NCBI RefSeq assembly: GCF_017094525.1
Contig: NZ_CP064788.1
Coordinates: 975,030 to 1,039,029 of the forward strand
Direction of reading: 5' to 3'
Source: Halapricum desulfuricans
GTDB taxonomy: Archaea; Halobacteriota; Halobacteria; Halobacteriales; Haloarculaceae
Length of the DNA stretch: 64,000 bases
Position numbers and translations under genes: made by a program. Each line of letters opens with the position of its first letter. Position 1 is the stretch's first letter. This document shows positions 21,778 through 56,166 of this stretch, in pieces. The notes beneath the pieces are model-generated. The model did not search any database. It saw nothing but the letters and a program-made list of their open reading frames with translations, and was not told the DNA's origin.

Positions 21778-21861
21778 GCGATCGTCCAGACGGGACGTCT
21801 GTTCCGTATCGACGACTCGATACGAGGTGGGAGGATCGGCAACTCGGTGTACGAACCCGTA

Positions 21862-22383
21862 TCAGCCGGTCGCGTTCTTCGGGACGACGAGGCGATCGCC
21901 CACGCCGACACCGGTCGCGTTTGCGTACCCGCGCGGGACTTCGAGGACGTACTGGCCAGTCCCGGGGTACCGCCGGAGGTCGTCGTCCGGCGTCTGTCCG
22001 GGGACGGGTGCGTGGTGGATCGTCGTGATCGTGCCGTTCGGGGCGGCGAAGACGATGTCGAGCGGGAAGTCCATGTCGCGCATGACGAACTCGTGGCGGC
22101 CGGAATCGGGAAAGACGAACAGCATGCCCTCACCGTCGGCGAGCGAGTCAGTCTTGCTGAGCCCCACATAGCGTTCACGCTGGCTGTCGGCGACTCGGAC
22201 GTCGACGGTCGCCAGTTCGGTTCCGTTTTCGTCGGCCAGCGTGACCGTGGCTTCCTCGTAGTCCAGCGGGTGCAGAAGGCCGCCGAGCGGCCCGGTCGGA
22301 TGCAGTGCCCAGAAGCCGACCACGAGGACGATGACCCCGACGGCGACGAGCGTAACGAGTCGGTCCCGGTCGGGCAACTCCAT
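21862..22383 (-). CDS. DUF192 domain protein
   Basis: N-terminal TM helix, then ...GLSKTDSLADGEGMLFVFP...MRDMDFPLDIVF typical of DUF192. Confidence 0.65.
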   Translation of the reverse strand: MELPDRDRLVTLVAVGVIVLVVGFWALHPTGPLGGLLHPLDYEEATVTLADENGTELATVDVRVADSQRERYVGLSKTDSLADGEGMLFVFPDSGRHEFVMRDMDFPLDIVFAAPNGTITTIHHAPVPGQTPDDDLRRYPGTGQYVLEVPRGYANATGVGVGDRLVVPKNATG

Positions 22384-22524
22384 ACGGACGCGAGGAGACG
22401 GCCGAGCGTAATACTGTCGCTGTACCGTTCCGACACCGCGGTGCCGACGGTATGGGCGAGCGTACAGCCGACTGTCGATCCAGAGAGAAAGCGTTATTCA
22501 CCCGGGCGGGCAAGACCGGTCTGT

Positions 22525-22598: not shown

Positions 22599-22691
22599 TC
22601 ACTGCCGTCGAACGGACGTGAGACGGCTGTTTTGCCGACAAGGATTTGAACCAGACGAGTCGCGCGCAGCGAGGCGAGCACGTCTCGACGA

Positions 22692-23215: not shown

Positions 23216-23270
23216 TGGCGACCGTAGGGACGGGGTCGTTAAAGAGTGTCCGGAGGCGGTCAGCGTTTCA

Positions 23271-23350
23271 TACGGACTACTGTGCGTCTGTTCCGCATTG
23301 ACCGCCCGTATTCGGGCAGTCGGAGCGGTAAATCGTTACGGCAGTCCGTA
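23271..23350. repeat. intergenic hairpin repeat element, copy a (GTCTGTTCC...CAGTCGGAGCGGTAAATCGTTAC inside an 8-bp outer stem)
   Basis: Shares its conserved flanks with copies at 39041, 39207, 40248 and 56142. The internal hairpin covaries. Confidence 0.6.
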
Positions 23351-24592
23351 TCAATTGAGTGCGCTGACGGCCACATTCACGACTCGGTTGTCGGGATCGA
23401 TACGGCGGTTTCGCAGGATCTCGTCCGTCCGTTCGTCCTCGAGTTCGGCACAGATTTCGGCGACCGCGAGTCGGATATCAGGATCGTCGGCATCGGCGTG
23501 TCGCCTAAGGAAGTCAAAAACTCGATCCGGAATCCGATCGGACGGCAACTCCGAGCCGATCGAACGGACGGTCTCGGCATCGACATCGTCTGTGTCCACG
23601 TTCGCGAGTGTCGCCTCGACACCTGTCGATTCGGTCTCCGTGTTGGTTCCGTTGTCGGTCACTTCACTATCGGAGGCATCGCCTGTCTCCTGGGCTATCG
23701 GTTCGACCTCGCTTGTCGGACCAGCAGCCCCACTCTCGGCAGAAACAGACGCGTCAGTCTGCTTCGAACTGGATGGAGCCTCAGGCGCCGGGTTCTCTAT
23801 CGAGCCGTCGGTAGTCACCGAATCGGACGGCGAGTGACTGCTCGACGAAGTCTCGGTGCCGCTATCGCCACCAGAGGCACTGTGCTCAGGTCGGATATGG
23901 TCGTCTGAGGCCGTCGAGAGGACAGTGTGTCGTCCCTTCCAGCCGGCACCAAGGATCGATCCGAGGAATGCGAACTCGCCGAGCGAGATGAGAAACAGGA
24001 GCGGCCGATCGAGCCCCGGCGAAGGAGTGACGACGCCAAGCGGGGCAAGGTCGATCAGCGAGAGGATGCGCCCGAAGAGGAAAAGAAAAGTGAGGCCGAA
24101 GGCGATCATCCAGGTGACTTTTCGCTGCGCGCGAGCGATCACCGCGACAACGGCGATCGGTGCTGTCGCGAAGAGAGTTATACGGATAATATCTCCCATC
24201 GACAAATAGATGGTCGCGCTGGTGAGGACGGTCAGCGAAAGGATCGTCGCCACGAAAACGTAGCCAGCGTAGGCCGCGTACAGCGTCCCGAACCGGTCGA
24301 ACTGGGCCTGAGCGTCGGCATCCGGGAGTTGCGTAGCCGTCTCTGAAGGTAACGAGTCAATAGAGTCGGACCCGGGCTCTGGCGAGGACTCCTGCGTGTT
24401 CGAACCCGTCTCGCTGGCGTTCTTGGCGACGTCACTTGCAGTGCTCGTGGCGCTGGCTGCAGCACTCGCGGCTGTCCGCGATCCGCCGATCAGTTTCAGG
24501 ATCGCGGTCTTGATCGTCCGGAACGCGGACAGCACGACGAACAGAGGTGCCAGGGCGCTCTTGATCGGCGCCATGATGAGCCGTCGGAGCAT
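23351..24592 (-). CDS. membrane protein with C-terminal HEAT-like repeats, last gene of the accessory cluster
   Basis: Four TM helices, a Ser/Thr-rich linker and C-terminal ...IRLAVAEICAELEDERTDEIL...NVAVSAL HEAT-like units. Confidence 0.5.
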   Translation of the reverse strand: MLRRLIMAPIKSALAPLFVVLSAFRTIKTAILKLIGGSRTAASAAASATSTASDVAKNASETGSNTQESSPEPGSDSIDSLPSETATQLPDADAQAQFDRFGTLYAAYAGYVFVATILSLTVLTSATIYLSMGDIIRITLFATAPIAVVAVIARAQRKVTWMIAFGLTFLFLFGRILSLIDLAPLGVVTPSPGLDRPLLFLISLGEFAFLGSILGAGWKGRHTVLSTASDDHIRPEHSASGGDSGTETSSSSHSPSDSVTTDGSIENPAPEAPSSSKQTDASVSAESGAAGPTSEVEPIAQETGDASDSEVTDNGTNTETESTGVEATLANVDTDDVDAETVRSIGSELPSDRIPDRVFDFLRRHADADDPDIRLAVAEICAELEDERTDEILRNRRIDPDNRVVNVAVSALN

Positions 24593-24594
24593 GC

Positions 24595-26307: not shown

Positions 26308-26310
26308 GGG

Positions 26311-27891: not shown

Positions 27892-27982
27892 ATGTAGCAC
27901 ATATCTCGTAGAAGGCATGATACATAGTTCCTACGCCTGGTAACCGCTCCGTCGGGTGGCGTCACGAGACTCGACTCCGCGA

Positions 27983-29260
27983 TCACGAACCGAATAGCTC
28001 GCGTAGCTGCCTGAACAGAGAACCAGCCACGTCCGAGAGGCTGCGTTCGATCTCAGTCGCTTCCGTCGTCTCGCCCGACGAGCGAGTCGCCTCGGAACGA
28101 CGGAGGCTATCCGTTTCAATACCGACACGTTCCCGGTCGAGAGTCCCGGACGCCTCGCCGGCGATACCGGGAGCGTCCGTCCGTCTCTGCCAGGGGAACG
28201 TCCGCATCTCCGTCGACTGGGACTGGTCCCGGATTGTATCGAGGACGCTGCTGTCTTCCGCACGAGCGGCGAAGGAACTCCCCTCGGCGAAATCGCTTCG
28301 AGCGCGATGACGGCTCGTCGATCCGCCGACATCGGTCGAATAAGTACCACCGGAACAGCACAGAAGCGACACCGACTCGTCGAGGACAACCGCACGGAAC
28401 AGCGCAGTCAGATCACGTCGGAAATCGAGCATCGATTCGTATCGCTCGTCCCGTTTTTTCGCAAGGGCCGTTCCGAGGACCCCATCGACCGCTGCTGGAA
28501 GGTCGGGATCGACCTGTGTCGGCGGGTCAGGTGCATCAGTGAGATGGTGGTTCATCACCGCTTTGGCGGTGCCTGTAAACGGTGGATGCCCGGTCAGGAG
28601 CTCGTACACTACTGTCCCGAGCTGGTAGATGTCAGTTCGATCGTCCGGCGGCCCGAGCGTCTCGGGATCGAACTGTTCCGGTGCCGAGTACCGCGGTGAG
28701 AGTCCGTTCACCTCCTGTGAGTGGTGCAACAACAGTTTGGACAGTCCCCAGTCGCTCACCTTCGGAACGTCCCAGGTTCGGTCGTCGGTCGTCCGAAACA
28801 GCACGTTCTCGGGTTTCAGATCGAGATGTGCGACACCGTAGCGGTGGGCGTCCCGGACAGCGTTCGCGACCCAGGCACCGATCCACAGCGCTTCACCAAA
28901 GTCAATCTCACCGGTTCGGTCGGCAAGCGAGCCTCCGTCCATGTACTCCAGGGCGATCCAGGGAACCGGTGTCGAACCCCAGTCGACGATACCGACGATC
29001 CCGTCGTGGCTGTCGATCTGCTCCCACGTTTCTGCCTCCGAGACGACCCGCTGGGCGAGTTCCCGGTCCAGCGTCCCCTGCAGGCGCGGTTGCTTAACTG
29101 CCAGCACGGTGCCGTCCGGAGCACGCATCTTCGTTACGTCGGCTGTTCCTCCGATACCGATCTGCGCCTGCTCTTCCAGCGTCGAGAGATCAACATCGAT
29201 CGCTGGCGCCGCGGGCACGTGCTCTGGGATCGCCGTGTGATCAGTCGGCGATAGATTCAT
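27983..29260 (-). CDS. Hanks-type serine/threonine protein kinase
   Basis: VAIK-like AVK, HLDLKPENVL catalytic loop, SDWGLSK (DFG-equivalent) and APE motifs. Ser/Thr-rich C-terminal tail. Confidence 0.85.
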   Translation of the reverse strand: MNLSPTDHTAIPEHVPAAPAIDVDLSTLEEQAQIGIGGTADVTKMRAPDGTVLAVKQPRLQGTLDRELAQRVVSEAETWEQIDSHDGIVGIVDWGSTPVPWIALEYMDGGSLADRTGEIDFGEALWIGAWVANAVRDAHRYGVAHLDLKPENVLFRTTDDRTWDVPKVSDWGLSKLLLHHSQEVNGLSPRYSAPEQFDPETLGPPDDRTDIYQLGTVVYELLTGHPPFTGTAKAVMNHHLTDAPDPPTQVDPDLPAAVDGVLGTALAKKRDERYESMLDFRRDLTALFRAVVLDESVSLLCCSGGTYSTDVGGSTSRHRARSDFAEGSSFAARAEDSSVLDTIRDQSQSTEMRTFPWQRRTDAPGIAGEASGTLDRERVGIETDSLRRSEATRSSGETTEATEIERSLSDVAGSLFRQLRELFGS

Positions 29261-29469
29261 TGGACCCGACTAGCCGTATCCCGGTTCGGATGGGGTTCCC
29301 GAATCCGAAGCGGATATCTGGTCGCCCCCCTCTTGACGAGCGGGCGTCGGAGGGGGACGCTGTCGAATCCATCGGACGCGGTGTTCGGACGCACAGTTGT
29401 ATGCCAGTCTGGCACGATAAATAGTGTTTCGCTCGTTTCATAAAGTACTGGCCACCGGATAGGAGCCAG

Positions 29470-30240
29470 TCACACATCAGTGAGGTCCTCGCCGCACTCG
29501 GGACAGACCTGCGCTTTCGCGGGGATGGACTCGCCACAGAACAGACAGTACTTGCGAGTTCGTTTGTCTGCCGAACGTTCGGCCTCGCACTTCGGACAGA
29601 CCGGACCGGTATAGGTGATCCCATGAGTCTGACAGCTGTTTTGCGTGTCCGTTTCGCTGACTGTCTCCGGCGCGTCACCGGACGTGGCGCTCTGTGAGTT
29701 ACCACCGACGTTCGACCTGTTGACGACACTATCGTCGACGGTCACGTCGCCACCCCGCGAATCTTCCCCCGCCTGTCCGGGGCCGATGTCCGATCGGTTG
29801 ACGACGCTGTCGTTGACGGTCGTGCTGTTGTCGACCTTATCGCCGGCGACGTAATCGCCGCCGCTGACTTCGATCCGGGCGTCGCGCTCGACGGTCAGGC
29901 GGAGTTGGGTCTGGTAGCCGAGTTCGATCACCGCGTCTCGACGCACGCGCTCGCTGAATCCCTCTTCGATGTCGTGGGAGTCCCCTTCGGTCCGGACGAC
30001 GACGCCGTTAGAGTTTCCCCGGTTACGGACTTCGATCGACTCCGGCTGTGGGACGAACACGACAGGCGGATCGTCGCCTTTCTTCTTGGAGACGGTCACG
30101 TCCGCGATCCCGAGCGGTGCGACGCCGGTTTCGGTCTCGACGACGACTTCTTGATCCCGGGCGGGATCGCGGTAGACCTCCGTGCGTGACTCGATCGGGA
30201 CGGCCCCATTGTCGGTCCTCTCGGGCGAGAGATAGCCCTT
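29470..30240 (-). CDS. double zinc-ribbon protein with internal tandem repeats
   Basis: C-terminal CPKCEAE...CLFCGESIPAKAQVCPECGEDL. Tandem DSVVNRS(D/N)(I/V)G repeats, also visible at the nucleotide level. Start at MKGYLSP. Confidence 0.55.
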   Translation of the reverse strand, partial: KGYLSPERTDNGAVPIESRTEVYRDPARDQEVVVETETGVAPLGIADVTVSKKKGDDPPVVFVPQPESIEVRNRGNSNGVVVRTEGDSHDIEEGFSERVRRDAVIELGYQTQLRLTVERDARIEVSGGDYVAGDKVDNSTTVNDSVVNRSDIGPGQAGEDSRGGDVTVDDSVVNRSNVGGNSQSATSGDAPETVSETDTQNSCQTHGITYTGPVCPKCEAERSADKRTRKYCLFCGESIPAKAQVCPECGEDLTDV

Positions 30241-30346
30241 CATGCCTCTCTGCAAGCGTATTATATCTGGGAACCCATGAAAATGTGGGAATATGTCTGA
30301 TGCATATACATAGACCCAGACAAGCGTTTGGCCGCGACTTCGGGCG

Positions 30347-31117
30347 TCACTCCCGCATGTACGCCTGCTCGACCCGACTTGCGATCCGCTCGACACGCCT
30401 GATCCGATCCTCGGCCAACTCCCCATCCGTACCCAGCGCCTCGAAGGCCTCGATCAATCCCTCGACATCTTCCCGGACGTCCTCGTAGGCGCTATCGTCG
30501 ACGGGATGTTCGGCCATGAACTCCCGAACTTCCTCGGCGCGTTGGAGACACGCTGTCGCGGAGTCGTGGGCAGCTGCTTCCAGATGCTCCGCAAGCGACT
30601 GCCCGAGATAATCGACCGCCTCTTCACCGCCCTCGTCTTCCTCGTCGCTACCTTCATCTCGTTCCATCCGGGTGATATCCGACAGTCGCCGCCGGGCACG
30701 CCTGCGCTCGTCTTCGTAGGTCGCGTTGCCGGCGATCTCCGCCAGCGCCTTCCCCACTTCGCCCCGGAGCGTCTCACCCAGACCGGCATAGATCTCCCGG
30801 AGCGCGTCGATAGCGTCTAGCCGGTCGTCCGAAAACTTCGAATCATCAGCGAGTTCGGTTAGCGTCTCGACGACGACCTCTTCAATCGGGTCTGACTCGC
30901 TTTCGAAACAGGCCAGCAACTCCTCGCGGGCCAACTCGCGCTCGTCGCGGTGAGTCGACTCCAGTGTGATTTCCCGGAACGCCTCAGCGATAGTCCGCTT
31001 GTCCTCCACGGGCGCGTCCGGATACAGCTCGGCCAGCGACTCGATGGCCTCCTCGCGATCCCGCGAATAGGGCGAATCCAGCGCAGTCTCGCGATGCGTG
31101 TCGATGCTGTGCTGCAT
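30347..31117 (-). CDS. acidic alpha-helical repeat (HEAT-like) protein
   Basis: Repeated ...A.ESL.EL.......A..L.E... units. Start at MQHSIDTH (ATG 31115-31117). Confidence 0.45.
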   Translation of the reverse strand: MQHSIDTHRETALDSPYSRDREEAIESLAELYPDAPVEDKRTIAEAFREITLESTHRDERELAREELLACFESESDPIEEVVVETLTELADDSKFSDDRLDAIDALREIYAGLGETLRGEVGKALAEIAGNATYEDERRRARRRLSDITRMERDEGSDEEDEGGEEAVDYLGQSLAEHLEAAAHDSATACLQRAEEVREFMAEHPVDDSAYEDVREDVEGLIEAFEALGTDGELAEDRIRRVERIASRVEQAYMRE

Positions 31118-31118
31118 C

Positions 31119-32882
31119 TCAGTCACCTCCGAGGTCGTGGCCGCAATTGAGGCAAAACTCGTCGTCCGGCTCGACTTCCGCCTCACACTCGGGACAGACG
31201 ACGACCCGATCGGTACCGGAGTCATTACTACCGTCCGAGTCACTACCGCCGCCCTGGACGATCGTGGTGTCGCCGTCGTCGCTGCGCCCCGGATCGGAGA
31301 CGATCACGTTGTCGGAGGTGTCTTCGGCCGCGGCTGTGCCGGTCTCGCTCACGTTGTCCATCGCGGACTCGCTGGTCTCCTGTACCCGGTCCATCGAATC
31401 CGCAGCGATGTCTTTGATCTCCTCGCGGAACTCCTTTTGATCCTCGGCACGCTTGCGCTCGGCCTCGGCGTTGTGGGCCTCCTGGCGGGCCTTCGCGAGT
31501 TCGTCGGAGTCTTTCGCGCCAAGCGCTTCCAGTTGCTCGGGGGTGAGGTCCTCGGCAGCCTCGATCTCGGCGATCTCGGAGACGGCCTCGTCGACACTGT
31601 CCATACTCGCAAGCGTCGAAAGATCGACTTCGTCGCGTGCCCGCAGACGCTCTTTCTCGACTTCGGCCTCGTGTTCCTCGCGGCGCATTTCCAACTCATC
31701 TTCGCGTTCCTCGACGTCGAGACCGTCCATATCCTTCTTTTTCTTGAGGTGCATCAGGTCCTCGATCTCATCGACGTCCTGCTCGTGTTCGAGTTCGCGC
31801 CGTTCGACCTCGCCCTCTTTTTTCGTGGTTTTGATCTCTTCGGTGTGCTCAACGTCCTCGCGTTCGGCCGTGTGCTCGTGGCGGCGCTCCATGTCCGACT
31901 TCTCGTGTCGGTGTTCGATCTCCTGGGTCTCGATCTCGTGGTCGGCGGCCTGCTCGCTGGTCTCCCGGCGGACGCGCTGCTCGTTTTCGTGAACGCTGTC
32001 CGCAGTCTCGCGCTCGCGATCCCGGCGGTCCAGTCGGGCTTCGTCGTCCTTGATATCCTCCTCTTTCTCGCGGATCTCGACGTCCTTGTTCGCCTCGCGG
32101 ATGTGGTCCTGATCGTCCACGAAACTGACAGACAGCAGATCGACCAATCGAAGACCGTACCGCTGGAGGGCCGAGCGACAGGCACGCTCGATATTCTGAG
32201 CGAGTCGCTGTTTGAGTTCGCGATTACCATAGACGTCCTCGCGGTCGTACTCGCGCATCGTCGCTTCCAGTTCGTCCTCGATCGGACCGCCAAGCACCTG
32301 TTGGAAAGTCCGGCTGGTGACGGTCCCGCGGTCGGAAAGCAGACTCGTAAACAGTGTCATCGGATCGTCGACATCGATGGCGAGTTCGAAAGCGACGTCC
32401 AGCGGATACTCGCTGGCGGTCCGAGCACTCGCTTCGAGCGTGACCGTTGTCTCACGGCGCTCGATCAAGATTGCCGCGATGTCGCCGGTCTTCTGCAAGG
32501 ACGTGATCTGCTCACCCAGCGAGTCTAGCGTATGTTTGCCCGGTCCCAGCCGCTCGACGACTTGCCCATCGTGCACGAAAAGCGCCTCGTTGCCGGCCTC
32601 GATCGAGACCTGCTTTCGCCGTGTTAGTTTCCCCCAGAGACTATCGGATCCGAGCTCGCCGGCGTCGGCACGGCGAGCGAACTCGTGCGGTTTCAACCGG
32701 AGTGCGCCGTCCTGAGACGCTGTTGTCGGGCCGAGTTCGGCACGGCAGTTCGGGCAAAAGTTCGCCGCTGCTGGCACGGCTGTCCCGCAGTCGGGGCAAG
32801 TCCGCTCGACGGACGCACCACACTCACTGCAGAACGTCGCCTCGTCAGGCAGCGAGGCCCCGCAGTCGGGGCAGGTCGTCAT
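31119..32882 (-). CDS. SPFH/band-7 (flotillin-like) protein with N- and C-terminal zinc ribbons and a long charged coiled coil
   Basis: N-terminal CPDCG...CSECG...CPDCG...CPNC. SPFH core SIEAGNEALFVHDGQVVERLGPGKH ... YGLRLVDLLSVSF. E/R/K-rich flotillin-like coiled coil. C-terminal CPECEAE...CLNCGH. Confidence 0.65.
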   Translation of the reverse strand: MTTCPDCGASLPDEATFCSECGASVERTCPDCGTAVPAAANFCPNCRAELGPTTASQDGALRLKPHEFARRADAGELGSDSLWGKLTRRKQVSIEAGNEALFVHDGQVVERLGPGKHTLDSLGEQITSLQKTGDIAAILIERRETTVTLEASARTASEYPLDVAFELAIDVDDPMTLFTSLLSDRGTVTSRTFQQVLGGPIEDELEATMREYDREDVYGNRELKQRLAQNIERACRSALQRYGLRLVDLLSVSFVDDQDHIREANKDVEIREKEEDIKDDEARLDRRDRERETADSVHENEQRVRRETSEQAADHEIETQEIEHRHEKSDMERRHEHTAEREDVEHTEEIKTTKKEGEVERRELEHEQDVDEIEDLMHLKKKKDMDGLDVEEREDELEMRREEHEAEVEKERLRARDEVDLSTLASMDSVDEAVSEIAEIEAAEDLTPEQLEALGAKDSDELAKARQEAHNAEAERKRAEDQKEFREEIKDIAADSMDRVQETSESAMDNVSETGTAAAEDTSDNVIVSDPGRSDDGDTTIVQGGGSDSDGSNDSGTDRVVVCPECEAEVEPDDEFCLNCGHDLGGD

Positions 32883-32952
32883 AGTTGCCCCCCATGCAGC
32901 GAGTCAAGACGGTTTGGGTCAGTCGATACGCGCGTAGTGGTCTGCTCGTGTG

Positions 32953-33717
32953 TCATCGTGGATTATCTCCCTGATCGAGGCGCTGCTGTCGGCGTTCGAG
33001 GGCGGTTTCGAGGTCGCGGAGCCGGCGGTGAACCGTCTCGAAGTGTTCTCCGGCGGGGTTAGGAAGAGACTGCTCTAGGGCGTCAAGTTCCTCGTGGAGC
33101 CGGTCGATAGCCGCCACGAGATCCGTATGAATAGAGACAACGGCCGAACGATCGCGAAGAGATACGGCATCAGTAGATATGCCGTCCTGTGGACTCGTTA
33201 TTCGCTGTTCGGCCTGCCGGACGGTTTCGGCCAGCGAGCCGACTCGGGCGGCAGCGTCCCGGTCACCACTCTCGACGAGTCGATCGTGAACGTCGTCAAG
33301 GACTGACCTGGCCGCCGCGAGCTCGGTAGCCAGGTGCGATCGAACCTCGGCGTCGACGCTGGCGATCGAATCGGGCGACGAGTACGGCTCCGAGACGACG
33401 TCCCTGAGCGGTTCCGGAACGTCAACCGCGTCGGGCTGAGGGGGTGTCGACAGATCAGCCGCTGCTGGCGCAGACGCGGCTTCGGAGCTGTGGCGGGCAA
33501 AATGATACGCGATCCCCCAGAGAAACGCCAAAGCGGTGGATATCAGCAACATGCCGGTCACGGACTCGGGCAGCGAGAGGCCGACAGTCGAGAGCACTGA
33601 ATCACCGATCGACCGACTGATCCCCGTCACAAGGGACGTATGAGCACTGATGTATGCGCCGAGGACGATACTTCCGAAAGAAGCGATCGCGTGTGAAGCG
33701 CCTGTCTTGGCCGGCAT
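32953..33717 (-). CDS. membrane protein, possible SPFH partner
   Basis: Three N-terminal TM helices and a helical C-terminal domain. Confidence 0.4.
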   Translation of the reverse strand: MPAKTGASHAIASFGSIVLGAYISAHTSLVTGISRSIGDSVLSTVGLSLPESVTGMLLISTALAFLWGIAYHFARHSSEAASAPAAADLSTPPQPDAVDVPEPLRDVVSEPYSSPDSIASVDAEVRSHLATELAAARSVLDDVHDRLVESGDRDAAARVGSLAETVRQAEQRITSPQDGISTDAVSLRDRSAVVSIHTDLVAAIDRLHEELDALEQSLPNPAGEHFETVHRRLRDLETALERRQQRLDQGDNPR

Positions 33718-33720
33718 ACG

Positions 33721-34929
33721 TCACCTCTCGTATCCCGTCAGTGTCGCCTCGGTCTCCTCGATCGCCCGTTCGAGATGGGATTGAGTGATCGGCTGGACAT
33801 CGTCACTCTCGCGGGCGTCTTCGAGGGCGTATCTGGCGGCATTGGTCGCAACGATCTCCAGATCGCGCGCCGAGTAGCCCGCCGTCTGTCCCTTCGTCGT
33901 TTCCCAGTCGATCTCTTCGTGGAGGACCGGTCGATTCCGGAAGTGAACTCGCAATATCGCTGCGCGTGCCGGTGCGTCAGGAGGGGGGACTTCGATCCGC
34001 TCCTGAAAGCGGCTAACTGCGGCGTCGTCGACTTCCTCGGGGAGGTTCGTCGCGCCGACAACGATCACATCCTCGCCGCGGGTTTCGGTGAGTTCAGTCA
34101 GAAACTGGTTGACCATCTGGCGTTCGCTCTGAGTCTTCTGCGAGCCGCCGCTTCGGGACGGCATCAGGGCGTCGATCTCGTCGACGAAGATCAGACATGG
34201 CTGGTTCGATCGAGCGACCTCGAACAGCTCCGCGACGTTGTCAGCCGCTTCCCCGACCAGTGAGCTGGTGATGTCCGTGGCCCCGATCTCGATGAAATTG
34301 TAGCCGAGCTCTCCGGCCAGGGCGTTCGTAATGTACGTCTTCCCGGTTCCCGGCGGCCCGTACAGGAGGATCGCGTTGACGACGCCGAGATCGTACTCCT
34401 CGTAGAGGTCCGGCCGCTCCAGCGGATCGATCACGGTGTCTCTGAGTGTCTCCTTGAGCTCGCCCATCCCGCCGACGTCCTCGAAAGCCATCTCGGGCGG
34501 CTCTTCGAGAAATCCGCTCGCGTCCGTCTCTGTATCCGGTGTGGCTGACGACACCCCACTCGGCCGGGAGCCGTTGTTTCGACCGTCTGACGACTTCCCG
34601 CTCGCCGACGGAGTACTGTTCGGTGGCGTATCTGACCTCAATGGCCCATCGGGAGCATCTGCACCCGTTCCCGGCTGCTGACCGTCGAGCGAGCCAGCCC
34701 CTTCGAGTCGCTCGGCAGCCGTTCGAAGGTTTTCGGCGAGTTCGTGCCGCTTCGTCGCGAGCCGATCGCTCGACTCGGCGTTGGCGATGTCTTCGAGCGT
34801 CTCCGCACACTTGCGGTAGAGCTTCGCGGCTTTCTCGGCGTCACCGCGTTCCCGGTAGGCGTCGGCCTTCACCCGGTACTGCTCGTAGTTGTCCTTGAGG
34901 ATCTGCTTCTGGGCCTGATCTTCGATCAT
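33721..34929 (-). CDS. MIT-domain AAA+ ATPase (Vps4/CdvC-like)
   Basis: N-terminal MIT-like three-helix region (MIEDQAQKQILKDNYEQYRVKADAYRERGDAEKAAKLYRKCAETLEDIA), a Ser/Pro-rich linker and an AAA domain. Walker A GPPGTGKT, Walker B IFVDEID, SRH ...AVSRFQERIEVPPPD. An alternative start at 35001 would overlap the upstream gene. Confidence 0.75.
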   Translation of the reverse strand: MIEDQAQKQILKDNYEQYRVKADAYRERGDAEKAAKLYRKCAETLEDIANAESSDRLATKRHELAENLRTAAERLEGAGSLDGQQPGTGADAPDGPLRSDTPPNSTPSASGKSSDGRNNGSRPSGVSSATPDTETDASGFLEEPPEMAFEDVGGMGELKETLRDTVIDPLERPDLYEEYDLGVVNAILLYGPPGTGKTYITNALAGELGYNFIEIGATDITSSLVGEAADNVAELFEVARSNQPCLIFVDEIDALMPSRSGGSQKTQSERQMVNQFLTELTETRGEDVIVVGATNLPEEVDDAAVSRFQERIEVPPPDAPARAAILRVHFRNRPVLHEEIDWETTKGQTAGYSARDLEIVATNAARYALEDARESDDVQPITQSHLERAIEETEATLTGYER

Positions 34930-34966
34930 CGCGGGTCCTCCGATCGTTGCGCCGCCCGAATCATGG

Positions 34967-35689
34967 TCAGATCGTGCCGATGTCTTCGTCGAGGTCCTCA
35001 TCGAGGTCGGCGTCGAGACTCACCTCATCGAGGCCCTCTTCAGCTTCAACTTCCTGTTCGACGTCGATCTCTTCCTCGGAGATCTCTCCCGCCGCCATCT
35101 CCTCCATCATCTCCATCTCTTCGCTGTCTTCGGTCCCCATCTCGACGTTCATCACATCGATGTCCAGCCCTTCCTGAACCTCCTGCATGATCTCCATGTC
35201 GAGGTCGAACTCGACCATCTGATTCATCATGTCCTCCTGAACGGACTCGACGTCGACATCACGTTCCCGGATGATCTGTTCGATTTCGGTCGTGTCCCCA
35301 TCGTGCATGTCCTGGAGTTCGCGCGCCCCTTCTACGCTGACGACCGTCCCGAGGACAACGCTGTTTTTCTGGTACTGCTTCTTCTTTAGTTTGTACTTCT
35401 TTTTCGCAATCTGTGCCTTCTTCGCGTAGCTTTCCCGCTCGATTTCGTTCGTCTGTGCTCCCTTCTGGAGCAACTCCTTGTACTCGTTTGCATACTGATT
35501 CATCTCCTGTTCGATCCGCTTGCGCTGCTTGCGGAGTTTGATCTTGTCCCGACGGAGGTCCTCGTCGTTGTAGACTGCCTCATCAAGCAGGGAATTGGCC
35601 GATTCACCGAAGTAATCCTGTACCCAGTTGCGAACTTGCATGGTTGGTGTGTATGTTTGGATTGGCAAATTACTTTGCACGCGATCCAT
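34967..35689 (-). CDS. ESCRT-III/Snf7-like coiled-coil protein with an acidic C-terminal tail
   Basis: Basic N-terminal helices (LRRDKIKLRKQRKRIEQEMNQYANEYKELLQKGAQTNEIERESYAKKAQIAKKKYKLKKKQYQ). Central and C-terminal Met/Glu/Asp-rich helices (MMNQMVEFDLDMEIMQEVQEGLD). This is the Snf7/CHMP charge asymmetry, and the gene sits next to the MIT-AAA ATPase. Confidence 0.55.
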   Translation of the reverse strand: MDRVQSNLPIQTYTPTMQVRNWVQDYFGESANSLLDEAVYNDEDLRRDKIKLRKQRKRIEQEMNQYANEYKELLQKGAQTNEIERESYAKKAQIAKKKYKLKKKQYQKNSVVLGTVVSVEGARELQDMHDGDTTEIEQIIRERDVDVESVQEDMMNQMVEFDLDMEIMQEVQEGLDIDVMNVEMGTEDSEEMEMMEEMAAGEISEEEIDVEQEVEAEEGLDEVSLDADLDEDLDEDIGTI

Positions 35690-35967
35690 CAGATCTCTGG
35701 TTCAAACACCAGCAGCGTCCCGAGCACGCCCAGCACCGAGCCAGCGGCGGCAGCCAGCACCAGCAACTTCATCTCCGAAACGGTGACCGTCAGCATCTCC
35801 TCGCCGAACGTCGCCTCGGCGTAGATGATCGCTGCGCCAACGAGTACGCCGCCGAACGCCCCAGCCGCGACCCGCTGTTCCATCAACTTGTACACGCCCA
35901 ACACGAGGGTCGCAGCGACGAGGAGGTTCAGTACGAACGCGCCTCCGATCCAGAGTGTGATCGACAT
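35689..35967 (-). CDS. small membrane protein (three TM helices), first gene of the accessory cluster
   Basis: 92 aa, hydrophobic; its start codon overlaps the next gene. Confidence 0.45.
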   Translation of the reverse strand: MSITLWIGGAFVLNLLVAATLVLGVYKLMEQRVAAGAFGGVLVGAAIIYAEATFGEEMLTVTVSEMKLLVLAAAAGSVLGVLGTLLVFEPEI

Positions 35968-36330
35968 GGCTTTGTCAGCTCACGTGACCAACATCCGTGT
36001 CTACCCACTTAAATTTACCTACTATCTGGTTCTTCTACTGAATATCCATTTTGGAGAAGAATGTGTATCGAATATTCACACTCGTAGACGATCAATAGGC
36101 CGACAAAGTGGGGTATAGCGACCCGTTTGTGCGCTGTACACGACCGAGCGTCGTTGAAAGCGACCACTGTGCCCACAGACTGCTTGCCTCCGATTTGGAG
36201 AAAAGCTTTAGTTATTGGCATCGGAGATATAGAACAGAGATGAGACAGTCAGGTATGCGGACCCGCGCAGTCCGGTCGATCGGGGCAGTCGATCGACGTG
36301 AGAGGTGGCGGTCAGTGCAGGTGTTCGCCC
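35968..36330. promoter_or_regulatory. AT-rich divergent promoter region between the minus-strand cluster and the plus-strand gene pair
   Basis: About 45% GC with TATA-like motifs (tttaaatttacc, atattcacact). Confidence 0.5.
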
Positions 36331-36852
36331 ATGAGTGGTGAGTCAGATGAGGAGTACCTGTTCGTGGTCGACTACAAGTCGGACGCCGAGCGCAAACGCG
36401 TCGAGTATCTGTTCGAGAACGCGGACGGCGAGATCGAGTCGCTCGAAGGGCTGTCACGGATTGCGCACGATGTCGACCACGAGGCCATCTACGAGCAGCT
36501 CGTCTCGAAGGTCCCCGACGAGCAAGTCACGGCGTATCGTCTCGAACCGGTCGACATCGCGGCCGAACCCGAGCGCGTCACCGTCGAGCAGACGATCGAC
36601 GCGGCACCCGAAACCGTCGAGACGTTCGTCGAGTACATGCTCTCGAAGAAGAAAGCGGTCCTCCAGTCGTCAGCACGCAACGTGTACGAAGTCTACACGA
36701 AGAAAGGCCGTGCGGAGATCAGCTACGAACTCGACGGCGACGGCGGCGGGACGGTCGCCAGGATCCGGATCGACGGCTATCCGCCAGCACCGTCGTTTCT
36801 CGCCGAGTTCTTCGAGACCGAACTGACAGATTATGCGGAGAGCCAATTATGA
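36331..36852 (+). CDS. hypothetical acidic protein
   Basis: 174 aa from MSGESDEEY. Overlaps the downstream gene by 4 nt. Confidence 0.5.
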   Translation: MSGESDEEYLFVVDYKSDAERKRVEYLFENADGEIESLEGLSRIAHDVDHEAIYEQLVSKVPDEQVTAYRLEPVDIAAEPERVTVEQTIDAAPETVETFVEYMLSKKKAVLQSSARNVYEVYTKKGRAEISYELDGDGGGTVARIRIDGYPPAPSFLAEFFETELTDYAESQL

Positions 36853-39005
36853 CAACGTTCACCGACCGATTCGACGAGTTGACTCACGAAATGGAGGTCC
36901 TCCTCGATGAGGACCTCGCGTCGATCCAGAAGATGCCCGAACAGACCCGGCTGGAACGGTACAACAGTCTCAAATCCGACGAGGAGGAGTTCGTCTGGGA
37001 GTTCGCCAAGGAATTCGATCAGCTGACCGGCAGCGAGCGCGAAGACGTGCGGGCGAAGTTCAGACTCGCGCGACTGCTGATCGCGGCGAGCTTCTACGAG
37101 GAAGGGTCGCTCCCGCGCGCGATGCGCGACGATTTCGTCGAGACTGAACTGCAAGCCGTTGTCGACTTCGAGCGCTACAAGCGCTTCGACGTGCTCACCG
37201 AAGAAGAGATCGAGGCCAAGATCCGCCGGATGGACGGCGAAGTGTACGAACTCGTCACCGAGTACACCTCGACTCAGATCGCCAACATGGACGAGCTGAT
37301 GGACGAACCGGACGTCCAAAGCGACGTCATGCGAAAGCTTCTGGACCGCTATCAGGAGCGTTGCGAGAAGATCCGACAAGGGTTTTTCGTCTACGTCGAG
37401 ACCCACGGCCTCGAACACATGGTCGAGTCTATCGAGGCGGCCGTCCAAGCGGTCTCGGAGTCGGCCGACGAGCGTGAGGCGATCCAAGCAGAGCTCCGTG
37501 AAGAGATTCAGTCATTGTCTGAGTCACTGGAAGCCGACTTTCGACAGCAACAGCGTACATTCGAGGCACAGCTCCAGCAGGTCGAACACGAGATTACCAG
37601 CCAGACCGTCGATAGCGAGCAACTTCAGTCGGAACTCCAGCGCCTCGAACAGCAGGGCGATTCACTTACCGAACAGCAGGAGGTGCTCCTGGAGGAGTTC
37701 GGCGAGCGGATCGAACGCACGTCGACACTGGAGACGCGTCTCTCGACAAAGATCGAACAGCTCGAGGAGGTCCAACGCCAGACCAGAGAGGAGGTCCGCA
37801 AGGCCGCCCGCGAGGAGACGACCGCCGTCGTCGAGGAGGAACTGGCTGCGTTGCGCGAGCAGCGCGAGCAGCTCCAAGCGGAGATCGACACGCTCGAGCG
37901 CGAACGCGAGAGCATCGAGGTCGCCCGCGAACGTCTCGGTGAGAAGCAACAGCGCCTGTCCACCGAAGTCGATGGCCTGGCCGAACAGCGTGCTACGATC
38001 GAAGACACGACGGAGAAGCTCGACGAAACAGAGGCCGAACTCGCCGAACAAACCGACCGCCTTGCTGACGAGCGCGACGAACTCGCAGACACACGCGACC
38101 AGCTCAAGGACCGGCAGCGAGACCTCAAATCCGAGGTCGAGGACGCCCAGCAGTCGCTCAGCGCGGGCGACAACACGCTACCGGACCGGGCAATCAGCAC
38201 TTCAATGGCCCGACTGCTGGAGATGGACTACGTCGGTCGCTTCGACACGTCGATGCACGACGCCGAATCGGTCGTCACGACCGACGGGACCGTCGAGATC
38301 CCGGACGGGTACTGGGCCGATCGAAGCGAGCATTTGAACGATCAAGTCCGACTCGACCAGTTACTCGACGCCGACGGCACGCCCGAGAAATATCCCCTCG
38401 ACCGTCGCGCCAGATATTTCGTCACCGGTTCGGGACTACTGGGATTGCGGTCACGCCGGAAGATGGTGATCGAGGCGGCGATCAAGTCTAACCTTGAGGC
38501 CCACGCGACGAACGGTTTCGACGCTGCGCCCCGCGATCTCGACGATCTGCTCAATGTGGTCAACGACGCCGTCTACGAGGCTCAACAGAACGATTATCAC
38601 TATCTGTTGGGTGTTGCCTCACCGACGGGCTGGACCGACCGGGTGATCAGACAGGTCGAGGGCGGGAACGTAGCACGATCACGGTACTCCCGCCATCTCA
38701 GTCTGGTGCTGGTCGATCTCCAGCACGGCGACATCTACTACGACGATAGTGACGAGATCGCCAGCGAAAACAGCGATCTCTACGAAATTCCCGTAACGGC
38801 CGAGCGTGTCGATAAGGCGGTCGACGTGATCCGGTCGAACTACATCGAGGAGGTGGGGATCGATAGCGTCCTGCTGGAAGAGGTCGTCGAGGAGCAGGGA
38901 TTCGACGTCCGTGAAACCAAGGAGGCCTTCGACCGACTTGCGGAGAGCGGAGTGGGCGAACAACTGCATATCGACGAGTACGGGCTTGCGCTCGACGTCT
39001 CGTGA
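36849..39005 (+). CDS. large coiled-coil protein (718 aa) with a globular C-terminal domain
   Basis: About 250 aa of E/Q/R-rich heptads (SMC/Rad50-like coiled-coil character). C-terminal domain has YHYLLGVASPTGWTD...LVLVDLQHGDIYYDD. Confidence 0.55.
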   Translation: MTTFTDRFDELTHEMEVLLDEDLASIQKMPEQTRLERYNSLKSDEEEFVWEFAKEFDQLTGSEREDVRAKFRLARLLIAASFYEEGSLPRAMRDDFVETELQAVVDFERYKRFDVLTEEEIEAKIRRMDGEVYELVTEYTSTQIANMDELMDEPDVQSDVMRKLLDRYQERCEKIRQGFFVYVETHGLEHMVESIEAAVQAVSESADEREAIQAELREEIQSLSESLEADFRQQQRTFEAQLQQVEHEITSQTVDSEQLQSELQRLEQQGDSLTEQQEVLLEEFGERIERTSTLETRLSTKIEQLEEVQRQTREEVRKAAREETTAVVEEELAALREQREQLQAEIDTLERERESIEVARERLGEKQQRLSTEVDGLAEQRATIEDTTEKLDETEAELAEQTDRLADERDELADTRDQLKDRQRDLKSEVEDAQQSLSAGDNTLPDRAISTSMARLLEMDYVGRFDTSMHDAESVVTTDGTVEIPDGYWADRSEHLNDQVRLDQLLDADGTPEKYPLDRRARYFVTGSGLLGLRSRRKMVIEAAIKSNLEAHATNGFDAAPRDLDDLLNVVNDAVYEAQQNDYHYLLGVASPTGWTDRVIRQVEGGNVARSRYSRHLSLVLVDLQHGDIYYDDSDEIASENSDLYEIPVTAERVDKAVDVIRSNYIEEVGIDSVLLEEVVEEQGFDVRETKEAFDRLAESGVGEQLHIDEYGLALDVS

Positions 39006-39040
39006 TAAATTCTGACAGTGAAACGAAAGCCAAGATTCGC

Positions 39041-39117
39041 AGTGATTACTGTCAGTCTGTTCTGGATCGACCGCACGAAGGGGTGCAGTCGGACCGGTAA
39101 ATCGTTGCAGTAACGAC
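39041..39117. repeat. intergenic hairpin repeat element, copy b
   Basis: GTCTGTTCTGGATCGACCGCACGAAGGGGTGCAGTCGGACCGGTAAATCGTTGC flanked by an imperfect outer stem. Confidence 0.6.
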
Positions 39118-39206
39118 TATCAAGCGTGCTTGCCGACAGTGGGGCAGAGCCAGCAGTGATCGACGAGATGGGGTTCTGGAACTGCGGTCAGTGGATCGAG
39201 ACACTC

Positions 39207-39287
39207 ATACGGTCGGTTGTAAGTCTGTTCCAGATCGATCGCATCCGTTATGCGATCGTACCGGTAAATCGTTACAACCGACCGTAT
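39207..39287. repeat. intergenic hairpin repeat element, copy c (perfect 16-bp outer stem)
   Basis: atacggtcggttgtaa ... ttacaaccgaccgtat encloses GTCTGTTCCAGATCGATCGCATCCGTTATGCGATCGTACCGGTAAATCG. Confidence 0.65.
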
Positions 39288-39400
39288 CAGCTATTGCGGG
39301 CCGAATACGATCCCGATGCCAAGCGCACCACCCTGCGACTGCAGAGACCTCACGCCGGTGAACGATACGTGTAAGGCCCCGGAAACCGAATCTATGGCTA

Positions 39401-40240
39401 ATGGACGCGTCCGGTTCCACGCCGCCCGAGGCCGACTCGTCGACAAATAACGGGGACGAAGCGGGCGACGGGACGAGCACCGAAGACGATGACCGCTCGA
39501 CGGAGCAGCTCCGCGAACGGGTCGAACAGAAGTACGACTTCGAGGACTTCGGCCCGCGAGATATGGCCGAGATGACCGCCGAGGAGTGGGAGGCGGCGTT
39601 CGACGCCGACAGCTGGATCACTGGCGACGAACTGCTCAACCGCGTCGAGGCCGACCTCAAACAGCGGGTGCTCGATCGGGACGTCTTCGCCCGGATCGAA
39701 CGCGGCGACGAGTACCTGCTGGCATACTCCGAGGCCGGCTTCGCGCTGGTCTACCCTGACGGCAGCGTCGAGGGCGAAGGAACGGTCCTGCGGGACGTCA
39801 AGCCGGTGATCGCGCTGTGCTCGATGGACGACTACGAGGTCCCGGACGTACCCGACGGCGAGGTGCTCCCCGAGCCACAGGATGTGCCCGAGGGCGGCAG
39901 CGAACTCGGGAACATGATGGTCCAGGTGATCGCCGTCGTGCAGCTGCTGGCCGGCGTGATCCTGTTCGGTGCCGGGATCGTCCTCGGGCTGGAGCCGATC
40001 CCGCTCGTCGCCGGGCTCGGATTTTTCGTCGTCGGTGTGGGGCTGCTGTTCGTCGTGGCCAACGCCCGACTGTCCGATCGGTTCCGCTCCGAGGAGTTTC
40101 GGGACCGCCTGCGAGCGGTCAACGTCGGCGGCGAACGCCCGGACTTTCTCCCCGTCGACGAGGACGGCAACCTGACGACCGACCGACTCGACGGCGACTC
40201 CGAGAGTGTGCTTCCGCCCCGACCGGATCGCGAGGAGTGA
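39401..40240 (+). CDS. membrane protein with an acidic N-terminal domain
   Basis: Two TM helices (MMVQVIAVVQLLAGVILFGAG..., GLGFFVVGVGLLFVVA). Confidence 0.5.
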   Translation: MDASGSTPPEADSSTNNGDEAGDGTSTEDDDRSTEQLRERVEQKYDFEDFGPRDMAEMTAEEWEAAFDADSWITGDELLNRVEADLKQRVLDRDVFARIERGDEYLLAYSEAGFALVYPDGSVEGEGTVLRDVKPVIALCSMDDYEVPDVPDGEVLPEPQDVPEGGSELGNMMVQVIAVVQLLAGVILFGAGIVLGLEPIPLVAGLGFFVVGVGLLFVVANARLSDRFRSEEFRDRLRAVNVGGERPDFLPVDEDGNLTTDRLDGDSESVLPPRPDREE

Positions 40241-40247
40241 TCGTACG

Positions 40248-40327
40248 TCTGTTTCGTATCGATCGCAGGCGGTCGGAGCGGTACGACAACCCGTGTGATG
40301 CTGTCGGTTACCGGTCTGTGACAGCAT
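40248..40327. repeat. intergenic hairpin repeat element, copy d (degenerate) plus an adjacent 8-bp stem hairpin
   Basis: GTCTGTTTCGTATCGATCGCAGGCGGTCGGAGCGGTACGAC, then gatgctgtc-ggttaccggtctgt-gacagcatt. Confidence 0.5.
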
Positions 40328-40538
40328 TCGCCATATCGGGACAGCGAATCGTCTCGAAACGGCACCGTCAATATATGTTATAAATGCCGTGTGAATCGCT
40401 ACCGCTGAACTATATACCCGAGTGTTTGGGCCACCTGTGCGAAAAGAATATATATTGGATTGTGTTGCGGTCCCGATTTCCCCCATATATCGGGGGTTCC
40501 GGTGGCTTTATACAAAAAAGAGGCGGAGGGTGTGGTAC

Positions 40539-56141: not shown

Positions 56142-56166
56142 GTCTGTTCGGAGCGGTGAATCGGAA
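56142..56166. repeat. short copy (e) of the hairpin repeat family; flanks only: GTCTGTTCGGAGCGGTGAATCGGAATC
   Basis: Contains both conserved flank motifs, joined without the central hairpin. Confidence 0.4.

What the first reader, a model, noticed from the sequence alone, without database searches (positions are those of the whole stretch)
39041..40327. Five-copy intergenic repeat family with conserved flanks (GTCTGTTC ... CGGAGCGGTAAATCGTTAC) and covarying internal hairpins
Copies sit at 23271-23350, 39041-39117, 39207-39287, 40248-40327 and a short flank-only copy at 56142-56166. The flanks are conserved while the central hairpin differs but stays paired: CCGCCCG/CGGGCAG, CCGCACG/GTGCAG and GATCGCAT/ATGCGATC. 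Copy c is additionally wrapped in a perfect 16-bp outer stem. Covariation that preserves structure points to a structured RNA family or a MITE-like element such as an IS200/IS605-derived PATE. All copies are intergenic and bracket the accessory regions.
Basis: seen in the sequence. Interest (0 to 1): 0.6.

Follow-up and report, generated by a model that had tools for sequence, protein, structure and literature searches.

The report
Small mobile DNA repeat in a haloarchaeon
The repeats are copies of an 80-bp "miniature" transposon (a MITE) that has jumped recently in Halapricum desulfuricans; its paired stems are the transposon's inverted ends, not evidence of an RNA gene, so this is a new member of a well-known kind of element.

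Summary
The repeat is real, but it is a MITE, not a structured RNA and not an IS200/IS605 PATE.

**Structure.** Each intact copy is 79-80 bp. It has 15-bp terminal inverted repeats (consensus TAGTGATTACTGTAA), a central hairpin and two unpaired patches (GTCTGTTC and TAAATCGTT). A 3-bp direct duplication, T-C/G-A, flanks it.

**Copies in the window.**
- Three intact copies, all on the + strand: 23268-23353, 39037-39122 and 39205-39289.
- One 22-nt relic at 56142-56163.

**Evidence of mobility.**
- 94 exact-pattern copies, or 125 full-length copies by HMM, lie in 0.56 Mb of fetched Halapricum DNA.
- The flanking triplet is identical on both sides in 84 of 94 copies.
- Two filled/empty site pairs exist. 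One concerns window copy c, which is absent from a 99%-identical H. desulfuricans strain that keeps a single TCA at that spot.

**Pairing and strand.** Compensatory changes are genuine (15 of 30 pairs). They affect the transposon ends as much as the hairpin. Both strands fold well (the minus strand better for b and c), G·T is not favoured over A·C, and orientation relative to genes is random.

**Likely mobiliser.** The ends match the right end of a haloarchaeal IS630-family insertion sequence at 14 of 16 positions. The 3-bp duplication differs from the canonical TA of IS630.

Low-to-moderate interest.

The parts
23268..23353 (+). MITE copy a, intact. Layout: TSD TCA 23268-23270; left TIR TACGGACTACTGTGC 23271-23285; patch GTCTGTTC 23286-23293; hairpin 23294-23328; patch TAAATCGTT 23329-23337; right TIR ACGGCAGTCCGTA 23338-23350; TSD TCA 23351-23353. 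The right TSD is also the TGA stop codon of the minus-strand gene 23351-24592.
   Evidence: Also present in strain CP064789 (L090).
39037..39122 (+). MITE copy b, intact. Left triplet TCG (mutated TSD) 39037-39039; left TIR CAGTGATTACTGTCA 39040-39054; GTCTGTTC 39055-39062; TAAATCGTT 39098-39106; right TIR GCAGTAACGACTA 39107-39119; TSD TCA 39120-39122.
   Evidence: Present in CP064789 (L087:3219-3304).
39205..39289 (+). MITE copy c, intact and recently inserted. TSD TCA 39205-39207; left TIR TACGGTCGGTTGTAA 39208-39222; GTCTGTTC 39223-39230; TAAATCGTT 39265-39273; right TIR ACAACCGACCGTA 39274-39286; TSD TCA 39287-39289.
   Evidence: The empty site in strain CP064789 carries a single TCA.
40238..40283 (+). 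Decayed copy d. The TGA stop of gene 39401-40240 sits where the left TSD would be. The left TIR is truncated and the hairpin carries an 8-nt deletion. The right patch and right TIR are lost.
   Evidence: E = 3.7e-5, model positions 12-63. Shared with CP064789 and CP064787.
21792..21864 (+). It fills the 84-bp gap between convergent genes 21358-21777(+) and 21862-22383(-). Its terminal TCA at 21862-21864 is the stop codon of the minus-strand gene.
   Evidence: (E = 3.9e-5, model positions 14-86). Present in CP064789 and partly in CP064787.
56142..56163 (+). Probable relic e: GTCTGTTC joined directly to GGAGCGGTGAATCG. This is what copy a would look like with its central 27-nt hairpin deleted. 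The TIRs are eroded.
   Evidence: nhmmer gives only E = 2.3. Relatedness is inferred from the juxtaposition of the two patches.

Best explanation
These are copies of a non-autonomous DNA transposon (a MITE) that is 80 bp long.

**Shown directly**
- The element has 15-bp terminal inverted repeats and no ORF.
- It occurs in more than 100 copies in one Halapricum genome bin.
- It inserts precisely at a 5'-T(C/G)A-3' triplet, which ends up on both sides. The population consensus of the target is gaC|TSA|Gtc.
- It has moved since two 99%-identical H. desulfuricans strains diverged.

**Inferred**
- A DDE transposase supplied in trans binds the two inverted ends through its helix-turn-helix domains and excises the element.
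- It then joins the 3' ends to target strands cut with a 3-nt stagger. Gap repair creates the TSA duplication.
- The most likely source is the haloarchaeal IS630-family clade whose right end reads GAGTGATCACTGTAAC.

**The 'covarying stems'**
The outer stem is the pair of transposon ends. Both ends must fit the same transposase, so subfamilies change both ends together. The inner hairpin makes the element a near-palindrome. Quasi-palindrome template switching or arm-to-arm correction, together with descent from different master copies, keeps the arms complementary without any RNA function.

**After insertion** copies decay. Copies d and f are shared by diverged strains and are eroded. Copy e has lost its hairpin.
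For: **Architecture and copy number**
- The exact pattern occurs in 81 genome loci, mostly one Halapricum MAG, plus H. hydrolyticum, Halovenus and Halorubrum.
- That gives 94 exact-pattern copies. By HMM there are 143 hits, 125 of them full length.

**Target-site duplication**
- The flanking triplets are identical in 84 of 94 copies.
- The middle base is C/C in 52 copies and G/G in 33, so the repeat is direct rather than complementary.

**Filled versus empty sites**
- H. hydrolyticum L007 carries the element; the MAG locus L003 has a single TCA at the same place.
- Window copy c is absent from strain CP064789.

**Age series**
- c is strain-specific. a and b are shared at 99% identity. d and f are decayed and shared at 92%.

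**No strand or RNA signal**
- Both strands fold well; minus-strand z-scores match or exceed plus-strand for all three copies.
- Non-canonical pairs: 62 G·T against 83 A·C.
- Orientation relative to tandem neighbour genes: 15 same, 16 opposite.
- No Rfam hit.

**Link to IS630**
- The L050 transposase matches DDE_3 plus HTH domains in Pfam, and NCBIfam NF033545 (IS630 family) on both halves.
- Its right end GAGTGATCACTGTAAC is identical in a Halostagnicola relative and matches the MITE TIR at 14 of 16 positions.
- The same IS sits in the hairpin loop of a MITE copy.

**Wider distribution**
- Related, unannotated copies lie on plasmids of Halapricum, Halococcus, Haloarcula, Natronorubrum and Natrinema.
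- An 89-bp IS630-related archaeal MITE is on record (PMC3852290).
Against: - Canonical IS630/Tc1-mariner elements duplicate TA (PMC2170065). This element duplicates 3 bp (TSA), and a TA parse is excluded by both empty sites.
- None of the five full-length IS630 relatives examined shows a clean TSA or TA duplication.
- No IS630 transposase lies in the window. The only IS630 copy seen in H. desulfuricans is decayed and has different ends. The enzyme that moved copy c is therefore unidentified.
- No IS carrying the TACGG-type ends of copies a and c was found.
- An RNA-level effect of individual copies was not tested experimentally.
Confidence: 0.93

Rival explanations
1. A family of structured small RNAs, or a cis-regulatory RNA motif, in which the stems are kept by selection on the RNA fold and the two conserved patches are functional loops.
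For: - Strong predicted folds for copies a and c (-44.6 and -41.6 kcal/mol, z = -6.2 and -7.0).
- Real compensatory changes in 15 of 30 pairs.
- The patches are identical in the three window copies although their stems differ.
Against: - No Rfam match, even at E <= 10.
- The reverse strand folds as well or better (z = -6.0, -3.1 and -9.1).
- No G·U excess: 62 G·T against 83 A·C.
- Random orientation relative to neighbouring genes, 15 same and 16 opposite.
- In copies not selected by the patch sequence, the patches vary as much as the stems, and the 5' patch differs in Halococcus.
- Target duplications and precise presence/absence polymorphism are properties of mobile DNA, not of an RNA gene.
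Confidence: 0.04
2. An IS200/IS605-derived palindrome-associated element (PATE), moved as single-stranded DNA by a Y1 TnpA that recognises subterminal hairpins.
For: Small size, hairpin content and intergenic location.
Against: - IS200/IS605 elements and their PATEs have no terminal inverted repeats and make no target duplication (established knowledge of the family).
- This element has 15-bp perfect TIRs and a 3-bp direct duplication in 84 of 94 copies.
- Insertion adds the element plus one extra TCA.
- The ends resemble an IS630-family IS.
Confidence: 0.01
3. A MITE as described, but mobilised by a transposase of another family that typically makes 3-bp TNA duplications (for example the IS1031/IS427 groups of IS5, or Harbinger-like enzymes). 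On this view the resemblance to IS630 ends is convergent or irrelevant.
For: - The 3-bp T-N-A duplication and the palindromic target consensus fit such families better, from general knowledge, than the TA of IS630.
- No IS630 copy with a matching duplication was found.
Against: - No such transposase or IS with these ends turned up in 0.56 Mb of MITE-rich DNA.
- The 14-of-16 match falls exactly at the terminus of an IS630-family IS and is conserved in two genera.
- That IS is physically nested in a MITE copy.
Confidence: 0.2

Closest known systems
Archaeal IS630-related MITEs: the 89-bp ISMma9-related element of Methanosarcina mazei (Kamoun et al. 2013, PMC3852290) and, from memory, Sulfolobus SM1 (~80 bp, related to ISC1048)
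   Same: About 80-90 bp with no ORF, roughly 15-16-bp terminal inverted repeats resembling an IS630-family IS, multiple intergenic copies, and an archaeal host.
   Different: Different sequence and a haloarchaeal host. This element has a 3-bp T(C/G)A duplication, whereas the M. mazei element is listed with no direct repeat and canonical IS630 makes TA. It also has a long central hairpin and reaches very high copy number in one Halapricum genome.
Bacterial palindromic MITEs such as Correia elements (Neisseria) and ERIC/MITEEc1 (ISfinder files the latter under IS630; PMC11602168)
   Same: Short elements bounded by TIRs that fold into long hairpins and sit between genes, so they are easily mistaken for structured RNAs.
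   Different: Those elements duplicate TA, are 100-150 bp long and occur in bacteria. RNA-level effects are documented for some of them and are untested here.
IS630/Tc1-mariner transposons (ISY100, IS630; Feng & Colloms 2007, PMC2170065)
   Same: The likely mobilising enzyme has the same domain make-up (two HTH domains plus DDE_3) and matches the NCBIfam IS630 model. The element ends begin T/C-AGTG, and the target consensus is palindromic.
   Different: The duplication is TSA (3 bp) rather than TA (2 bp). The element itself encodes no transposase.
IS200/IS605 PATEs
   Same: Small, hairpin-rich and intergenic.
   Different: PATEs lack TIRs and TSDs. Both are present here.

Membership tests
MITE (non-autonomous TIR transposon of prokaryotes) | Short (50-800 bp), with no transposase ORF | tested here: met
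   79-80 bp between the duplications.
MITE (non-autonomous TIR transposon of prokaryotes) | Terminal inverted repeats of at least 10-15 bp | tested here: met
   15-bp TIR TAGTGATTACTGTAA / TTACAGTAATCACTA. The outer helix is 95% paired across 39 diverse copies.
MITE (non-autonomous TIR transposon of prokaryotes) | Direct target-site duplication | tested here: met
   T-S-A is identical on both sides in 84 of 94 copies. The middle base matches directly, not as a complement.
MITE (non-autonomous TIR transposon of prokaryotes) | Many dispersed copies and insertion polymorphism (filled versus empty sites) | tested here: met
   125 full-length copies in 0.62 Mb examined. There are two precise empty sites.
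MITE (non-autonomous TIR transposon of prokaryotes) | An autonomous IS with matching ends in the same or related genomes | tested here: inconclusive
   The right end of an IS630-family IS matches 14 of 16 positions. Nothing beyond the TIR is shared. No IS with the TACGG-type ends of copies a and c was found.
IS630/Tc1-mariner-derived element | Ends resemble those of an IS630-family IS encoding an HTH + DDE_3 transposase | tested here: met
   (NF033545 at 118 and 111 bits, cut-off 100).
IS630/Tc1-mariner-derived element | Duplication of a TA dinucleotide at the target | tested here: not met
   Both empty sites retain TCA, not TA, and the duplication is 3 bp. The canonical TA rule is from PMC2170065.
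IS200/IS605 PATE | No TIRs and no TSD; subterminal hairpins; insertion 3' of a fixed tetra- or pentanucleotide | tested here: not met
   Both TIRs and a TSD are present.
REP/BIME (RAYT-associated palindromes) | 20-40-nt imperfect palindrome with a conserved 5' GTAG-type head, no TSD, and an associated RAYT gene | tested here: not met
   The element is 80 bp with a TSD and precise insertion. A RAYT gene was not searched for.
Curated structured RNA family (Rfam 15) | Match to a covariance model | tested here: not met
   In the window only RNase P and one tRNA reach gathering score. Over the copies nothing relevant appears at E <= 10.

The most novel reading that the evidence does not exclude
The element may report a haloarchaeal branch of IS630-family transposases that cuts targets with a 3-nt stagger, duplicating T-S-A within C|TSA|G, instead of the TA that is otherwise reported for IS630 and Tc1/mariner elements. 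Full-length members of this branch may also prefer the centres of palindromes. Three of five IS copies examined sit in hairpin loops or between inverted flanks, and one of those lies in a MITE hairpin. If so, the MITE's central hairpin could act as a landing pad for its own helper IS.
Probability: 0.2. Interest if true: 0.5.

Novelty: new member of a known kind. Interest (0 to 1): 0.25.

Why it matters
**Annotation.** About 80 nt of strongly folding, covarying sequence between genes in Halapricum and other Halobacteria should be labelled as a MITE, not proposed as an sRNA or riboswitch. It is unannotated in every public record inspected.

**Genome dynamics.**
- The family is active: one insertion separates two 99%-identical H. 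desulfuricans strains.
- It has expanded to more than 100 copies in one Halapricum genome bin.
- This makes it a useful strain marker and a possible source of rearrangements.

**Transposon biology.** The 3-bp TSA duplication on an element with IS630-like ends is a small anomaly that would be worth a biochemical check.

**Method.** This is a clean example of why covariation in an inverted repeat does not by itself indicate an RNA structure.

Tried and rejected
1. **Rfam.** Searches at gathering score and at E <= 10 found nothing relevant.
2. **Viral contigs.** The only pattern match is an AT-rich chance hit. The phage collection has no match.
3. **Misreading of the L050 insertion sequence.** I first took the 40 nt outside the L050 IS as its own left end, which gave a '36/41 identity' between IS end and MITE. 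Comparison with five relatives placed the true left end (GAGTGATTAGCGCAAC) further in. The outer 40 nt are half of a MITE into which the IS inserted. The IS630 link now rests on the 14-of-16 TIR match.
4. **TSD of full-length IS630 relatives.** I looked for it in L083, L084, L091, L094 and L096 and found no clean direct repeat.
5. **Composite transposon.** The 16-kb island is not a MITE-flanked composite transposon. Its edges at 23255 and 39359 do not coincide with MITE ends, and copy c is a later insertion.
6. **Stop-codon targeting.** 29 of 125 copies (23%) have a TSD that is the TGA stop of a neighbouring gene. The background for eligible TSA sites is 19%, or 27% for CTSAG sites, so there is no enrichment.
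7. **Palindromic flanks.** Individual MITE insertions do not have them: 3.06 of 12 positions complementary against 3.44 for shuffled partners.
8. **Other IS-sized pairs.** A search for other IS-length pairs of these TIRs returned only pairs of separate MITEs.
9. **Exact-protein look-ups.** Three window proteins returned nothing. The organism was identified through a homologue search instead.
10. **Literature.** No description of this element or of Halapricum transposons was found. ISfinder could not be queried.

Full report
**Where the window comes from.** It carries an archaeal RNase P RNA and a tRNA-Val. The protein encoded at 39401-40240 is 100% identical to a DUF7319 protein of Halapricum desulfuricans.

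**Checking the observation.** Three copies of GTCTGTTC, then 32-33 nt, then CGGTAAATCGTT lie at 23286-23335, 39055-39104 and 39223-39271. All are on the + strand, and shuffled sequence gives no matches. Each folds into an outer stem, two unpaired patches and an inner hairpin. Copy c's outer stem is a perfect 16 bp. The reverse strands fold as well or better, with z-scores of -6.0, -3.1 and -9.1 against -6.2, -1.8 and -7.0 for the forward strands. No Rfam family matches, even at E <= 10.

**Related sequences.**
- A scan of one genome per species with the exact 20-base pattern returned 81 loci. That number may be a cap.
- About 70 loci come from a single Halapricum MAG (JAZKRQ01) and about 10 from H. 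hydrolyticum. Single hits come from two other Halapricum MAGs, Halovenus and Halorubrum. One hit in Limnohabitans looks like chance.
- Lined up, the 94 copies show the real anatomy: [T-S-A] TAGTGATTACTGTAA | GTCTGTTC | CCGG-GT-CGACCGCACG nnnn CGTGCGGTCG-CA-CCGG | TAAATCGTT | ACAGTAATCACTA [T-S-A].
The true ends are 15-bp inverted repeats lying outside the reported coordinates.
- An HMM built from these copies finds 143 non-overlapping matches, 125 of them full length, in 0.56 Mb of loci plus the window.

**Copies in the window**.

| Copy | Coordinates | HMM E-value | State |
|---|---|---|---|
| a | 23268-23353 | 9e-20 | intact |
| b | 39037-39122 | 9e-23 | intact |
| c | 39205-39289 | 2e-17 | intact |
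| d | 40240-40283 | 4e-5 | partial |
| f | 21792-21864 | 4e-5 | decayed, previously unnoticed |
| e | 56142-56163 | 2.3 | relic, not significant by HMM |

Copy e consists of the two patches joined directly, as if the hairpin had been deleted.

**Evidence that it is mobile DNA.**
- The triplets flanking the inverted repeats are identical in 84 of 94 copies.
- The variable middle base matches directly (C/C 52, G/G 33) rather than as a complement, so the triplet comes from the target.
- The flanks give a palindromic target consensus, gaC|TSA|Gtc.
- First filled/empty pair: H. hydrolyticum L007 reads GAG-TCA-[80 bp]-TCA-GGCG, where the MAG locus L003 reads GAG-TCA-GGCG.
- Second pair: H. desulfuricans strain CP064789 is 99% identical around the site and reads gagacacTCAgctattg, where the window carries TCA-[copy c]-TCA.
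- Copy c therefore inserted after these two strains diverged.
- Copies a and b are shared with CP064789. The eroded copies d and f are also present in the 92%-identical strain CP064787. The copies thus form an age series.
- A TA-duplication parse is excluded, because the empty sites contain only TCA.

**Is the covariation a sign of RNA structure?** The covariation itself is real. On 39 diverse copies 93% of cells pair, 15 of 30 pairs carry double changes, and no shuffle or slid register approaches this. Several results argue against an RNA explanation:
1. Ten of the fifteen covarying pairs are in the outer helix, which is the pair of transposon ends.
2. Among non-canonical pairs, G·T (62) is not favoured over A·C (83). 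Neither strand shows the wobble tolerance expected of an RNA.
3. Orientation relative to co-directional neighbour genes is 15 same and 16 opposite.
4. In the 33 copies not selected by my search pattern, the patches diverge as much as the stems: 0.10 per site against 0.08-0.12. A Halococcus plasmid copy keeps the TIRs and the TCA duplication but has GCCGTTAC in place of GTCTGTTC.

Matching changes in two transposon ends are expected, because both ends must fit one transposase. Near-palindromes are also homogenised by template switching (established knowledge; inference here). Hybrid copies with a left end of one variant and a right end of another also occur (L002 and L003).

**Which transposase?**
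- One locus from the MAG (L050) holds a 1.1-kb IS with a frameshifted transposase. The transposase matches DDE_3 plus HTH_23/28/29/32/33 in Pfam, and NCBIfam's IS630 model on both halves.
- Its right end, GAGTGATCACTGTAAC, is identical in a Halostagnicola relative and matches the MITE TIR (TAGTGATTACTGTAAC) at 14 of 16 positions.
- I first misread the 40 nt outside its left end as part of the IS. Comparison with relatives shows that they are half of a MITE whose hairpin loop the IS entered.
- The IS630 link is therefore good but not conclusive.
- Canonical IS630 and Tc1-mariner elements duplicate TA (PMC2170065), whereas this element duplicates TSA.
- No relative showed a clean duplication.
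- No IS630 gene lies in the window. The one H. desulfuricans copy retrieved is decayed and has different ends.

**Context.**
- Copies are intergenic, with convergent gene pairs over-represented. Of 86 classifiable copies, 34 lie between convergent genes, against 115 of 526 intergenic regions in the background. This is the expected result of selection against promoter hits.
- In 29 of 125 copies the duplication is the TGA stop of a neighbouring gene. This includes window copy a; the decayed copies d and f show the same arrangement. It equals the background for eligible TSA sites, 19-27%, so it is not a targeting preference.
- Copies a and b sit just inside the two ends of a 16.1-kb island (23255-39359). 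The island is absent from strain CP064787 and from H. hydrolyticum, where the DUF7321 and DUF7319 genes are adjacent. The island edges are not MITE ends, so it is not a MITE-bounded composite transposon.

**Comparison with known elements.** The element has every defining feature of a prokaryotic MITE. Short archaeal MITEs related to IS630 are on record: an 89-bp element in M. mazei (PMC3852290) and, from memory, Sulfolobus SM1. A 2024 census lists thousands of archaeal MITEs, with Haloarculaceae and Halovenus genomes among the richest (PMC11602168). I found no description of this family. It is unannotated in the plasmid records that carry it: Halapricum, Halococcus, Haloarcula, Natronorubrum and Natrinema. 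It is not a PATE, which has no TIRs and no TSD, and it is not a REP element.

**Verdict.** This is a new member of a known kind. Of the interpretation, 'MITE-like' is right, while 'structured RNA' and 'IS200/IS605 PATE' are wrong. The one mildly unusual point is a 3-bp TSA duplication on an element with IS630-type ends.

Noticed in passing
window 23255-39359: A 16.1-kb strain-variable island lies between the DUF7321 gene (22721-23215, minus strand) and the DUF7319 gene (39401-40240, plus strand). It is present in the window strain and in CP064789. In H. desulfuricans CP064787 and in H. hydrolyticum about 35 bp stand in its place. Its genes have lower third-position GC than their neighbours. 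It encodes a Ser/Thr kinase that matches PADLOC PD-T4-6 models (27983-29260, E = 2e-44), an AAA ATPase that matches IetA (33721-35001, E = 4e-33), a double zinc-ribbon protein (31119-32882), a HEAT-repeat protein and several coiled-coil or unknown proteins. It may be a defence island.
   Followed up: partly
L084:1934-3046, L096:854-1971, L050:1002-2111: Some full-length IS630-clade copies are flanked by inverted, not direct, identical sequence immediately outside their ends: 15 nt in L084 and 9-12 nt in L096. The L050 copy sits in the loop of a MITE's central hairpin. L083 and L091 show nothing of the kind. This suggests insertion into the centres of palindromes. Individual MITE copies do not show it.
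   Followed up: partly
window 21792-56163: All six copies or remnants in the window (a-f) are on the + strand. In the MAG contigs both orientations occur. With only six copies, two of them inside one island, this may be chance.
   Followed up: no
L002:5220 and L003:95 (MAG JAZKRQ01): Some MITE copies are hybrids. The left TIR is of one variant (GACCGCTG) and the right TIR of another (CAGTAATC), or the reverse. This suggests recombination between copies, or transposition using ends from two different copies.
   Followed up: no
L036:3829-3914, L034:6400-6485, L014:7041-7126, L013:6434-6519, L045:5944-6029: In several loci a long GC3-rich ORF runs 22-64 nt into a MITE and stops inside it. The MITE therefore appears to supply the C-terminal residues and the stop codon of the gene. 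The gene calls come from a crude GC3 heuristic.
   Followed up: no
window 40298-40330: A separate 9-bp inverted repeat, GATGCTGTC ... GACAGCATT, lies just downstream of remnant d.
   Followed up: no
window 15684-16086 (minus strand) and 22524-22600 (plus strand): Archaeal RNase P RNA (168 bits) and tRNA-Val(TAC). The tRNA lies about 650 bp from the left edge of the 16-kb island but does not abut it.
   Followed up: no
L066:1206-1400 and L082:4640-4810: MITE copies occur directly abutting each other, for example ...CACTATCA|TAGTGATT..., sharing or juxtaposing their TSA triplets. This indicates repeated hits at the same site or insertion next to an existing copy.
   Followed up: no
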